From the IMG/VR virus record IMGVR_UViG_3300031578_000354: 22,945 nt of DNA, one strand, 5' to 3'. This stretch comes from a virus. Under the pieces are notes generated by a model. It saw nothing but the letters and a program-made list of their open reading frames with translations. It was not told the DNA's origin and did no database searches. The stretch's first letter is position 1. Each line of letters begins with the position of its first letter. Shown one piece after another: positions 16,901 to 18,113 of the stretch. Made by a program: the position numbers and the translations under genes.

Positions 16901-17233
16901 TTATTCTTTTCCCCATGTCCGGCCAGTATCTGGCCAATTTAATAGAGTTTTTTCTATAATGTGTTGGGCAAATCTTGCATCTAATCCAGCACAACACAGA
17001 TCATCTGTGATTTGGCGAGCAAGAAAATCTGAAGTGTTTTTCCAATCTTCAAAAATGACTTTTGATGTATTATCTGATTTACAAGACAGTATAGTATCTT
17101 CTCTTAGCAGAGGACACAATGGATCAATTTCGCCGTCTGCACCACCAGGTCCACCGGGATGATTACAGACTAAACATCCATATGTTTCTCCGAGCATTGG
17201 GCACTCAGTACAACGTTTGATCAATATGTCCAT
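16901..17233 (-). CDS. Cys-rich small protein (110 aa), paralog of 17928..18113
   Basis: Motif shared with the 61-aa paralog: C-T-E-CPMLGE-x3-GCLVCNHPGGPGG-x9-CPLLREDTI-x-S-x-KSD. GGGAG RBS upstream. Confidence 0.55.
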   Translation of the reverse strand: MDILIKRCTECPMLGETYGCLVCNHPGGPGGADGEIDPLCPLLREDTILSCKSDNTSKVIFEDWKNTSDFLARQITDDLCCAGLDARFAQHIIEKTLLNWPDTGRTWGKE

Positions 17234-17290
17234 TCTATTTCTCCCATATCTGTAATGTTTGAATATACTATTTCAGTTGGAGTTTTACTA

Positions 17291-17710
17291 TTAACAGAAC
17301 AGTAACCAGCCAACATATCCAAGGACTGCTCCTAGAGTTAATATAGCACCCAACAATGCTAATAGTGAGCCGCTAAGCTTTGCTACAAACACCACATTTT
17401 CTTTCATCGCGTATTTTAAATGTTCCATTTCAGTTGGTTTGTTTATTTTATTTAAATAGTTTTTGATGGTCTGTGGAATAGATAATACGCCAAATAATAC
17501 AAGTCCAACTACCATAAATGATACTATTAATGCTCCTAAACCGAGAGATCCAGCACCCACATATTCCATCAAGGTCATAGACGATTTACATCCCATTAAA
17601 CTAAGTTTGTCTTCTATTATTATAGCACAAGAAAAAATGCTACAAAGAAAACCTATTATTATAGCGATCTTAGCTCTAACAGATAATGCTCTTATTTTTT
17701 CTAACATCAT
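17291..17710 (-). CDS. membrane protein (139 aa), paralog of 11921..12388
   Basis: AGGAG RBS at 6 nt. Four hydrophobic segments. The C-terminal LGYVGWLLFC matches the other paralog. Confidence 0.55.
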   Translation of the reverse strand: MMLEKIRALSVRAKIAIIIGFLCSIFSCAIIIEDKLSLMGCKSSMTLMEYVGAGSLGLGALIVSFMVVGLVLFGVLSIPQTIKNYLNKINKPTEMEHLKYAMKENVVFVAKLSGSLLALLGAILTLGAVLGYVGWLLFC

Positions 17711-17718
17711 TTCATCTC

Positions 17719-17931
17719 CTACATTATGATAGGTATAAGGTCTATAGGTGTTCCTGTTTTTTCATCTACTGCAGGAACATCTTTCCAATGTGTTTCACCA
17801 GTTTGTACATCTCTAAATCCATGTTGAAGAACAAAAGTTAACTCTGGCAAAGATTCTATTTTAACATAACGGCGAACATATCGGAAACTGTTTGTAGATT
17901 GATACGCTGTAAATTCTTTTTTCATAATCAT
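17719..17931 (-). CDS. small hypothetical protein (70 aa)
   Basis: ORF with 4-nt overlaps to both neighbours. Confidence 0.4.
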   Translation of the reverse strand: MIMKKEFTAYQSTNSFRYVRRYVKIESLPELTFVLQHGFRDVQTGETHWKDVPAVDEKTGTPIDLIPIIM

Positions 17932-18113
17932 TCTTCCATCGTTTCAACATCACTCTTAAGTGATATTATAGTATCTTCTATTAATAGTGGACATTTTGGA
18001 TGTATAGGTTCATTTCCAATACCAATAGGACCGCCAGGATGATTACAAAATAAACATCCATGTACTTCTTCAAGCATCGGACAATCATCACAACCCTTAA
18101 CAGATATTTTCAT
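17928..18113 (-). CDS. Cys-rich small protein (61 aa), paralog of 16901..17233
   Basis: C-D-D-CPMLEE-x3-GCLFCNHPGGPIG-x9-CPLLIEDTI-x-S-x-KSD. AAGGAA RBS at 7 nt. Confidence 0.55.
   Translation of the reverse strand: MKISVKGCDDCPMLEEVHGCLFCNHPGGPIGIGNEPIHPKCPLLIEDTIISLKSDVETMEE

What the first reader, a model, noticed from the sequence alone, without database searches (positions are those of the whole stretch)
16901..18113. Candidate novel family of Cys-rich (likely Zn-binding) small proteins
The 61-aa and 110-aa paralogs conserve five Cys in the pattern CxxC-x10-C-x2-C-x16-C, with an invariant CNHPGGP core and a CPLL(R/I)EDTI segment. I do not recognise this pattern as a known domain. Conservation across a duplication suggests a functional metal-binding module, possibly a cofactor or substrate adaptor for the adjacent NTase.
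Basis: seen in the sequence. Interest (0 to 1): 0.55.

Follow-up and report, generated by a model that had tools for sequence, protein, structure and literature searches.

The report
Small cysteine-rich phage accessory protein family
Two small cysteine-rich genes in this uncultivated phage are real paralogs of a tiny unannotated family that probably binds a metal, but they are optional cargo in a variable gene slot, not a conserved helper of the neighbouring enzymes.

Summary
Two minus-strand genes, 17928-18113 (61 aa) and 16901-17233 (110 aa), share a 55-residue N-terminal domain (35/55 identical, E 7e-22). dN/dS is 0.28 and dS about 1.06, so the duplication is old and the domain is constrained. 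The Cys spacing is CxxC-x8-CxxC-x17/16-C, not x10.

No Pfam, PHROGs, NCBIfam or PDB model matches. An exhaustive HMMER scan of 1.84 billion representative proteins recovered only the two proteins themselves.

Searches guided by gene order and by motif found four more members: two in L125, one in L127/L128, and P0003 in an unrelated phage. Across all six only C8, C11, C23, C41 and H25 are invariant, plus P12, P26, P29, P42 and L43.

In the window's relatives the genes always lie between a conserved 193-aa NTase and an RlaP NTase. That slot holds zero to nine unrelated small genes in sister phages, including tandem arrays of a different family. None of roughly 100 other phage loci with either NTase encodes a family member. 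An acidic 80-95 aa protein co-occurs with the family in all three phages.

Best reading: a probably zinc-stabilised binding domain of fast-evolving accessory proteins. Function and metal are untested, and AlphaFold2 failed. Interest is modest.

The parts
17928..18113 (-). Cys61: a 61-aa protein that is essentially the bare Cys-rich core domain (C8, C11, C20, C23, H25, C41)
   Evidence: ORF and translation. 64% identical to the Cys110 core, E 7e-22. Found at E 1.9e-12 by an HMM built without the window paralogs. Identical protein on 12 metagenome contigs of the same phage.
17072..17233 (-). Cys110, N-terminal core domain (residues 1-54)
   Evidence: (dN/dS 0.28 against Cys61).
16901..17071 (-). 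Cys110, C-terminal extension (residues 55-110; DFLARQITDDL...NWPDTGRTWGKE), shared only with the L125 125-aa ortholog
   Evidence: BLASTP to L125 928-1305: 39% over 128 aa, E about 1e-30. The low-confidence AlphaFold2 model hints at two helices.
16633..16899 (-). 88-aa very acidic protein (pI 4.3) that co-occurs with the Cys family; candidate partner
   Evidence: Homologs at 47-54% identity lie just downstream of the Cys genes in L125 and L127/L128 and are absent from every relative that lacks the Cys family. pI. No Pfam, PHROGs or PDB match.
17719..17931 (-). 70-aa ORF whose start overlaps the Cys61 stop by 4 nt; slot cargo unique to this phage
   Evidence: No homolog in any related locus.
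17291..17710 (-). 139-aa predicted membrane protein; slot cargo unique to this phage
   Evidence: Only one weak match in related loci (19% identity).
18127..18708 (-). 193-aa Pol-beta-superfamily NTase (short, RlaP-like); conserved upstream boundary of the variable slot
   Evidence: Pfam NTP_transf_2 at 3.2e-6 and phrog_388 at 6.5e-14. 256 homologs, the closest 62-83% identical. Always followed by the slot and then RlaP.
15428..16630 (-). 400-aa RlaP-family NTase; conserved downstream boundary of the variable slot
   Evidence: Pfam RlaP at 3.4e-17 and phrog_388 at 1.2e-62. 80-84% identical in L126 and L125.
19469..19509 (-). Terminator-like hairpin (17-pair stem followed by a T run) upstream of the transcription unit that contains the slot
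   Evidence: No other minus-strand terminator-like site between it and 14900.

Best explanation
The two genes are diverged paralogs of a small, previously unannotated family of phage proteins built around a core domain of about 55 residues. The core has a short N-terminal beta-strand, then C-x2-C-P-[ML]-[LF], then 7-9 residues, then C-x-H-P-x(2)-P. A variable, mostly acidic or glycine-rich loop of 11-37 residues follows, then C-P-L and a C-terminal beta-strand.

Inferred: the four invariant cysteines (C8, C11, C23, C41), possibly with H25, hold one structural metal ion, most likely Zn2+. This makes a rigid mini-scaffold that displays the variable loop and whatever extension is fused to it. Four arrangements are seen: no extension, two unrelated C-terminal extensions, and a basic N-terminal extension.

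Shown: the genes are optional cargo of a hypervariable slot between two conserved RlaP-like nucleotidyltransferase genes. They evolve much faster than those neighbours, have duplicated in tandem, and travel with an acidic 80-95 aa protein.

Inferred: they act as binding modules in host takeover or counter-defence, probably with the acidic protein. They are not obligatory subunits of the RNA-repair NTases.
For: Real coding paralogs under constraint: E 7e-22; dN/dS 0.28 with dS about 1.06.

Family membership and invariant residues:
- Alignments A5 and A7 and the core alignment give C8, C11, P12, C23, H25, P26, P29, C41, P42 and L43 invariant, at 23-65% pairwise identity.
- Leave-one-out HMMs recover every member among 22,135 ORFs. 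P0003 scores E 6.6e-6; the best decoy scores 0.014.

Modular fusions are visible in the sequences.

Hypervariable slot:
- L126 and L130 have the NTase genes abutting.
- L131 has one gene and L132 has three.
- L129 has four and L134 seven tandem copies of an unrelated 'MLMKWTDL' family.
- L135 has eight unrelated genes, and L150 has a different neighbour.

Fast evolution, window against L125: NTase 83%, RlaP 84%, acidic protein 55%, Cys110 ortholog 39%, Cys61 against its best match 32%.

Co-occurrence with the acidic protein: present in 3 of 3 phages with the Cys family and in none of those without it.

The core domain is acidic to neutral (pI 4.4-6.0 in five of six members), which argues against direct nucleic-acid binding.

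No dependence of the NTases on the family: and PMC12776372.
Against: Metal binding rests only on invariant Cys and His residues. AlphaFold2 gave unusable models (mean pLDDT 41 and 46), so the fold and the ligand set are not established. An Fe-S cluster is not excluded.

In every phage of the window's lineage that has the family, the first Cys gene starts within -11 to +13 nt of the NTase193 stop codon. A functional link to that enzyme therefore cannot be ruled out.

The host-interaction role is inferred from the genomic pattern only. No member matches an anti-defence model: the best Pfam hit is Tad8 at E 0.15, far below its cutoff, and PADLOC was not searched.

Only six sequences from four phages support the conservation pattern.
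Confidence: 0.5

Rival explanations
1. One reading: the Cys proteins are cofactors, regulators or substrate-targeting adaptors of the flanking RNA-repair NTases. In the extended version, the slot holds interchangeable specificity subunits for them.
For: In the three related phages that carry the family, it always lies between the two NTase genes and is apparently co-transcribed with them. The first Cys gene follows the NTase193 stop within -11 to +13 nt. No terminator-like site lies inside the unit.
Against: L126 and L130 keep both NTases with nothing between them.

80 loci with RlaP homologs, 14 with NTase193 homologs and 6 further relatives all lack the family.

59 cultured-phage records have the NTase and none has the Cys family.

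P0003 lies in another phage with no NTase on the contigs held.

Bacterial RlaP is active alone in vitro (PMC12776372).

Whatever gene comes first in the slot is adjacent to the NTase, so adjacency follows from slot position alone.
Confidence: 0.15
2. Small metal-dependent transcription or nucleic-acid-binding factors, like the lineage-specific zinc-ribbon expansions proposed as specific transcription factors in jumbo phages.
For: Iyer et al. 2021 (PMC7824862) describe an expansion of about 35 copies of a zinc ribbon in Bacillus phage G and propose a transcription-factor role. P0003 carries a very basic N-terminal extension and L127 a basic C-terminal tail.
Against: The core domain, and the whole of Cys61, Cys110 and L125b, are acidic (pI 4.4-5.2, net charge -4 to -10). 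No helix-turn-helix or known zinc-ribbon profile matches. The partner protein is also strongly acidic.
Confidence: 0.12
3. A small iron-sulfur or redox protein. The four Cys, two of them in Cys-Pro dipeptides as in ferredoxin cluster ligands, with or without the His, hold a [2Fe-2S] or [4Fe-4S] cluster.
For: Four invariant Cys plus one invariant His, and the two C-P motifs C11-P12 and C41-P42. C-x-H and C-P are recurrent features of Fe-S ligand motifs (general knowledge).
Against: None of the canonical spacings is present (CxxCxxCxxxCP; Rieske CxH...CxxH; CDGSH). No Fe-S family profile matches. No Fe-S assembly or redox partner genes were found in the window.
Confidence: 0.1
4. Functionless, decaying ORFan duplicates with no selected role.
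For: Very narrow distribution, and presence or absence varies among close relatives.
Against: dN/dS of 0.28 despite near-saturated synonymous divergence. Ten residues are invariant across members as low as 23% identical. The reading frames are intact and have ribosome-binding sites in four phages. The protein is identical across 12 contigs from several samples.
Confidence: 0.05

Closest known systems
Classical Cys4 zinc ribbons and zinc knuckles (for example the Pfam Zn_Ribbon families and HVO_2753-like small zinc-finger proteins)
   Same: Small size, a CxxC knuckle after a beta-strand, four invariant Cys, and a likely role as a structural metal site. In the two window paralogs a second CxxC (C20/C23) gives a zinc-ribbon-like look.
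   Different: The second knuckle is not conserved in the family. Two members have a single Cys there and two have C-x4-C or C-x5-C. The fourth invariant Cys lies 17-40 residues further on, in a C-P-L motif. An invariant C-x-H-P-x(2)-P turn has no counterpart. No profile match: HVO_2753_ZBP scores E 0.07 and 13.4 bits against a cutoff of 33.2.
Lineage-specific expansions of small zinc-ribbon proteins in jumbo phages (Bacillus phage G, about 35 copies; Iyer et al. 2021, PMC7824862)
   Same: Small Cys-rich phage proteins amplified by duplication within one lineage, with no known function.
   Different: Only one or two copies per genome here. No sequence relationship was tested or shown. Here the copies sit in one defined slot between two NTase genes.
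Plastic or accessory gene regions of large phages that hold small host-takeover and anti-defence genes (general knowledge: the hyperplastic regions of T4-like phages, and anti-defence gene clusters)
   Same: Conserved flanking genes. The content between them ranges from 0 to 9 small, mostly ORFan genes among close relatives. Tandem paralog arrays and fast divergence are seen.
   Different: No gene in this slot matches a known anti-defence family. The analogy is with the genomic pattern only.
RlaP RNA-repair nucleotidyltransferase systems (PF10127; PMC12776372, PMC7824862)
   Same: The family is flanked by an RlaP NTase and a short RlaP-like NTase. An Rnl1-like RNA ligase lies about 6 kb away in the same orientation.
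   Different: Described RlaP systems pair the NTase with RNA ligases (RtcB or 5'-phosphate ligases), not with Cys-rich small proteins. RlaP works alone in vitro. Nearly all RlaP loci examined lack the family.

Membership tests
Classical zinc ribbon (Cys4, two knuckles) | Two CxxC or CPxC knuckles that supply all four ligands, conserved across the family | tested here: not met
   The first knuckle, C8-x2-C11, is invariant. The second, C20-x2-C23, is present only in the two window paralogs. L127 and L125b have a single Cys there, L125a has C-x5-C and P0003 has C-x4-C.
Classical zinc ribbon (Cys4, two knuckles) | Significant match to a curated zinc-ribbon profile or a solved zinc-ribbon structure | tested here: not met
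   Best Pfam hit is HVO_2753_ZBP at E 0.07, 13.4 bits against a cutoff of 33.2, for one member only. Best NCBIfam hit is PRK14890 at E 0.063. PDB profile searches gave nothing significant.
Classical zinc ribbon (Cys4, two knuckles) | Three-stranded ribbon fold with the Zn ion between two hairpins | tested here: inconclusive
   AlphaFold2 models have mean pLDDT 41.3 and 45.8. One shows a hairpin at residues 14-23, but at unusable confidence.
Any metal-binding domain | Stoichiometric bound metal | not testable with these tools
   Needs ICP-MS or UV-visible spectroscopy of purified protein. Here it is only inferred from four invariant Cys and one invariant His.
Rubredoxin | CxxCG ... CPxCG motifs | tested here: not met
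   The motifs are absent from all six sequences, and there is no Pfam match.
Bacterial-type ferredoxin / Rieske / CDGSH Fe-S proteins | CxxCxxCxxxCP; CxH-x15-17-CxxH; or the CDGSH signature | tested here: not met
   None of these spacings occurs, and there is no profile match.
Tad8 (Type II Thoeris inhibitor, PF25189) | Profile match above the gathering score | tested here: not met
   E 0.15, 12.3 bits against a cutoff of 27. It covers only residues 75-99 of Cys110, outside the Cys-rich core.
Obligate partner of RlaP or NTase193 nucleotidyltransferases | Co-occurrence with the enzyme across genomes | tested here: not met
   Family present in 3 of about 24 phages with an NTase193 homolog, and in none of the 80 IMG/VR loci with an RlaP homolog. 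Absent from L126 and L130, where the NTase genes abut. Present in P0003's phage with no NTase on the contigs held.
RiPP precursor peptides (for example SCIFF-type Cys-rich peptides) | Leader peptide plus a C-terminal Cys-rich core, and an adjacent maturase such as a radical SAM enzyme | tested here: not met
   Conservation spans the whole 55-residue domain from residue 1. No radical SAM or other maturase domain is found among the window proteins scanned.

The most novel reading that the evidence does not exclude
The slot between the two RlaP-like NTase genes could be a dedicated diversification cassette. Its interchangeable, tandemly amplified small-protein families would be the Cys-rich family with its acidic partner in some phages, and the 'MLMKWTDL' arrays in others. 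These would act either as swappable targeting or regulatory subunits that redirect the flanking RNA-repair NTases, or as a new class of counter-defence proteins. In that reading, the C-x2-C-P...C-x-H-P-x2-P...C-P-L domain would be a metal-binding fold not yet represented in structure databases.
Probability: 0.15. Interest if true: 0.6.

Novelty: new member of a known kind. Interest (0 to 1): 0.3.

Why it matters
If the inference is right, this adds a sequence-novel metal-binding mini-domain to the pool of phage 'dark matter' proteins. It also marks a well-defined variable slot, between a short RlaP-like NTase and a full RlaP NTase, where related phages swap and amplify small proteins.

Such slots are productive places to look for host-takeover and anti-defence functions. 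The co-occurring acidic protein gives a concrete two-gene unit to test.

There is a methods point too. An exhaustive HMMER scan of 1.84 billion proteins missed every relative, yet following the conserved neighbouring gene into sister phages found three relatives at once.

On present evidence this is a narrow, function-unknown ORFan family. It does not bear on any long-standing open question.

Tried and rejected
Direct homology searches that found nothing beyond the window proteins themselves:
- Pfam, PHROGs and NCBIfam scans of all members.
- PDB sequence searches with profiles A2 and A5.
- The word-indexed 5.8-billion-protein search with A2, which returned only the query.
- The exhaustive 1.84-billion-representative HMMER search, which returned only the two window proteins.
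- INPHARED by DNA and by tblastn with Cys61 and the L127 protein.
- IMG/VR scans with A2, A8 and A6, and two fixed-spacing degenerate DNA patterns for CPML...C.HP. All 26 pattern hits were out-of-frame noise.
- GTDB genome scans with A2 and A6.

Structure: AlphaFold2 with the 2- and 4-sequence alignments gave pLDDT 41 and 46. Fold searches were therefore not run, since they would have been meaningless.

Candidates rejected as relatives:
- L092 and L093, which are antisense to an HNH-like gene.
- The L078 68-aa CxxC protein, hhalign probability 1.5%.
- L145 4922-5197 ('CRACMHPDGP'), E 0.014, left unresolved.

Segmental duplication with the neighbouring genes was rejected. The 70-aa and 88-aa proteins are unrelated to each other and to the Cys110 tail. 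The two NTases share only the active-site motif.

Population variation was uninformative: the 10 loci fetched from the 12 contigs of the same phage are 99.6-100% identical to the window.

Literature search for the motif strings found nothing relevant. The window has no tRNA gene and no Rfam match.
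Full report
1. The observation

On the minus strand, 17928..18113 encodes a 61-aa protein (Cys61) and 16901..17233 a 110-aa protein (Cys110). Their first 55 and 54 residues align with one gap: 35/55 identical, E 7e-22.

The Cys spacing is C8-x2-C11-x8-C20-x2-C23-x17(16)-C41(40).

A codon-level comparison gives 68.5% nucleotide identity, dS about 1.06, dN about 0.30 and dN/dS 0.28. The duplication is therefore old and the domain is under purifying selection in the minus-strand frame. The overlapping plus-strand ORFs are shadows of these genes. Both genes have Shine-Dalgarno-like motifs 8-9 nt upstream (read).

The whole window is a single minus-strand gene array of an uncultivated large phage. 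It encodes Lon protease, an AAA ATPase, an Rnl1-like RNA ligase, an MVP-shoulder protein, a cytidylyltransferase, DUF7227 and Prok-E2_D. The window has no DNA match in INPHARED.

2. Is it a known domain?

It is not.
- Pfam, PHROGs and NCBIfam give nothing above noise for any member. The best hits are HVO_2753_ZBP at E 0.07 and Tad8 at E 0.15, both far below their cutoffs.
- PDB sequence and profile searches give nothing significant.
- AlphaFold2 with the shallow alignments available at the time failed, with pLDDT 41 and 46. No fold comparison was possible.

3. Does it exist elsewhere?

Direct searches nearly say no.
- The word-indexed search found only the query.
- The exhaustive HMMER scan of 1.84 billion representatives found only the two window proteins.
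- IMG/VR, GTDB genomes and INPHARED gave nothing.
- The identical 61-aa protein is on 12 contigs. The 10 fetched as loci are 99.6-100% identical to the window, so they are the same phage population.

Two indirect routes did find relatives.

(a) A motif-seeded metagenome scan found P0003, a 138-aa protein of a different phage. It has a basic N-terminal extension followed by the domain. An HMM built without it scores it at E 6.6e-6 among 22,135 ORFs.

(b) Following the neighbouring gene worked better. The 193-aa NTase at 18127..18708 has close homologs (62-83% identical). Their contigs are sister phages with the same backbone. Three further members lie there:
- L125 658-924 (88 aa)
- L125 928-1305 (125 aa), the ortholog of Cys110 including its C-terminal extension: 39% identity, E about 1e-30
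- L127 1256-1585 (109 aa; L128 carries the same gene)

These three score only 30-37 bits against the two-sequence profile. That explains why the whole-database scan missed them.

4. What is conserved

Across the six distinct proteins (23-65% pairwise identity in the core) the invariant residues are C8, C11, P12, C23, H25, P26, P29, C41, P42 and L43.

It is absent from L127 and L125b and displaced in L125a and P0003.

The family signature is therefore C-x2-C-P-[ML]-[LF]-x(7-9)-C-x-H-P-x2-P-(variable loop of 11-37 residues)-C-P-L, flanked by short strands of alternating hydrophobic residues. It has four invariant Cys and one invariant His.

This is what a single structural metal site looks like, but it is not the two-knuckle zinc-ribbon pattern. 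Metal binding is an inference.

The domain is modular. It occurs in four arrangements:
- alone (Cys61)
- with a 'DFLxRQIxDDL...NWPxxGRxWGK' C-terminal extension (Cys110, L125b)
- with a 'YNVxTFDGH...KWLEKHP' C-terminal extension (L125a, L127)
- behind a basic N-terminal extension (P0003)

The Cys61 core is closest to the Cys110 core (65%) and next to the P0003 core (51%). The core is acidic to neutral in five of the six members.

5. Genomic setting

In the window and its sister phages the backbone runs... 263-aa protein, small genes, NTase193, [slot], RlaP NTase, 145-aa protein, MVP-shoulder protein ... The slot content differs sharply between phages:

| Phage locus | Slot content |
|---|---|
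| Window | Cys61, 70 aa, membrane protein of 139 aa, Cys110, acidic 88 aa |
| L125 | Cys 88 aa, Cys 125 aa, 68 aa, acidic 95 aa, 41 aa |
| L127/L128 | Cys 109 aa, acidic 79 aa |
| L126, L130 | Nothing; the NTase genes abut |
| L131 | One 70-aa gene |
| L132 | Three genes |
| L129 | Four tandem paralogs of an unrelated 'MLMKWTDL.PGD' family of about 90 aa, plus a 232-aa gene |
| L134 | Seven tandem paralogs of the same 'MLMKWTDL.PGD' family, plus a 151-aa gene and a 133-aa acetyltransferase gene |
| L135 | Eight unrelated genes |
| L150 | A different gene directly after the NTase |

So the Cys genes are one of several alternative, duplicating cargos of a hypervariable slot.

They also evolve much faster than the frame around them. 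Window against L125: NTase 83%, RlaP 84%, acidic protein 55%, Cys110 ortholog 39%.

The acidic 80-95 aa protein (pI about 4.1-4.3) is present in all three phages that have the Cys family. It is absent from all relatives that lack it. This makes a two-gene cassette the most economical unit.

A strong terminator-like hairpin at 19509..19469 precedes the unit, and none lies inside it.

6. The NTase-adaptor idea

Evidence for it: position and apparent co-transcription. The first Cys gene begins within -11 to +13 nt of the NTase193 stop in all three phages.

Evidence against it:
- Whatever is first in the slot is adjacent to the NTase, including the unrelated MLMKWTDL genes.
- L126 (NTase 82%, RlaP 80% identical) and L130 need nothing between the NTases.
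- None of 80 IMG/VR loci with RlaP homologs has a relative. None of 14 loci with NTase193 homologs has one either.
- INPHARED has 59 records with an NTase193 homolog but no Cys-family relative at all.
- P0003 sits among unrelated small phage genes with no NTase on the contigs held.
- Purified bacterial RlaP adds one or two nucleotides to RNA 3' ends without accessory proteins (PMC12776372). The jumbo-phage survey links RlaP to RNA ligases, not to Cys-rich proteins (PMC7824862).

I rate this model at about 0.15.

7. Most likely mechanism

Shown: these are real, constrained, duplicated genes. They share a signature of four invariant Cys and one invariant His. The domain is fused to different extensions. 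The genes are optional cargo in a hypervariable slot, diverge fast, and co-occur with an acidic protein.

Inferred: one structural metal ion, most likely Zn, rigidifies a scaffold of about 55 residues whose variable loop and fused extensions provide binding specificity. The proteins act in host takeover or counter-defence, probably with the acidic protein.

The rivals, each rated separately in the report, are an NTase adaptor, a small nucleic-acid-binding regulator, an Fe-S protein and functionless ORFans.

8. Comparison with known families, and novelty

The closest known kind is the small Cys4 zinc ribbon or knuckle of phage accessory proteins, including lineage-specific zinc-ribbon expansions in jumbo phages (PMC7824862). 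Membership in the classical zinc ribbon fails on the second knuckle and on every profile test. Rubredoxin, ferredoxin, Rieske and CDGSH motifs are absent.

It is a new sequence family of a familiar kind: small, Cys-rich and phage-specific. It is extremely narrow in distribution, with six proteins in four uncultivated phages.

Interest is modest at 0.3. It would rise if the slot proved to encode swappable partners of the RNA-repair NTases, or a new anti-defence class.

Noticed in passing
L134 1911-3857; L129 8587-9685; L132 3349-3645: In sister phages the same NTase193-to-RlaP slot holds tandem arrays of an unrelated ~90-aa family that starts 'MLMKWTDL.PGD'. There are 7, 4 and 1 copies in L134, L129 and L132, 22-47% identical to each other. 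This is a second lineage-specific expansion at the same position.
   Followed up: partly
window 16633-16899 (-); L125 1693-1980; L127 1585-1824: A very acidic 79-95 aa protein family (pI about 4.1-4.3; invariant FSFS, VWDDL.DII and EESSYE motifs). It has no Pfam, PHROGs or PDB match. It co-occurs strictly with the Cys family and is more conserved than it (47-55% identity).
   Followed up: partly
window 12445-15000 (-): An 851-aa protein with a major-vault-protein shoulder domain (E 1e-17) and a weak Vault_3 repeat hit. It is conserved at 74-75% identity in sister phages L126, L127 and L128. This is an unusual domain for a phage protein.
   Followed up: no
window 15428-16630 (-) compared with L127 1851-2735, L129 10367-11263 and L130 8576-9457: The RlaP gene downstream of the slot comes in two forms among sister phages. 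One is about 400 aa (window, L125, L126, L131; 74-84% identical). The other is about 294 aa and only 33-35% identical. The NTase193 gene stays 62-83% identical throughout, which suggests replacement of one NTase within a conserved backbone.
   Followed up: no
window 18127-18708 (-): NTase193 is a short Pol-beta-fold NTase. Its weak NCBIfam hits are to the MntA antitoxin and the Hailong HalB NTase. Homologs at 40-44% identity occur in 59 cultured-phage records, mostly Bacillus and Prevotella phages. Its function is unknown.
   Followed up: partly
window 19469-19509 (-): A 17-pair perfect-looking hairpin followed by a T run lies between the 263-aa and 162-aa genes. It is the only strong terminator-like site on the minus strand in 14900-20400.
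   Followed up: no
window 5184-7538, 7538-8899, 8896-10026, 718-1413 and 3607-4350 (all -): A full-length Lon protease, an AAA ATPase, an Rnl1-like RNA ligase, a Prok-E2_D protein and a DUF7227 protein are encoded in the same minus-strand array. Of these, the Lon protease, the RNA ligase and DUF7227 are 68-71% identical in L130, together with several neighbouring small proteins.
   Followed up: no
L145 4922-5197 (+): An ORF containing 'CRACMHPDGP' resembles the C-x2-C-x-HP-x-GP part of the window paralogs. It lacks the N-terminal CxxCP motif and scores only E 0.014 among 22,135 ORFs. It could be chance or a very remote relative.
   Followed up: no
L091 2443-2652 / L096 292-501: Directly upstream of P0003 lies a 69-aa CxxC...CxxC protein with weak RING and double-zinc-ribbon hits (E 0.001-0.005). 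It is unrelated in sequence to the family studied here.
   Followed up: no
window 10654-11295 (-): The precomputed annotation on the contigs lists PF26128 (Gad2) for this 213-aa protein. My Pfam scan at E 0.001 returned nothing. The discrepancy is unresolved.
   Followed up: no
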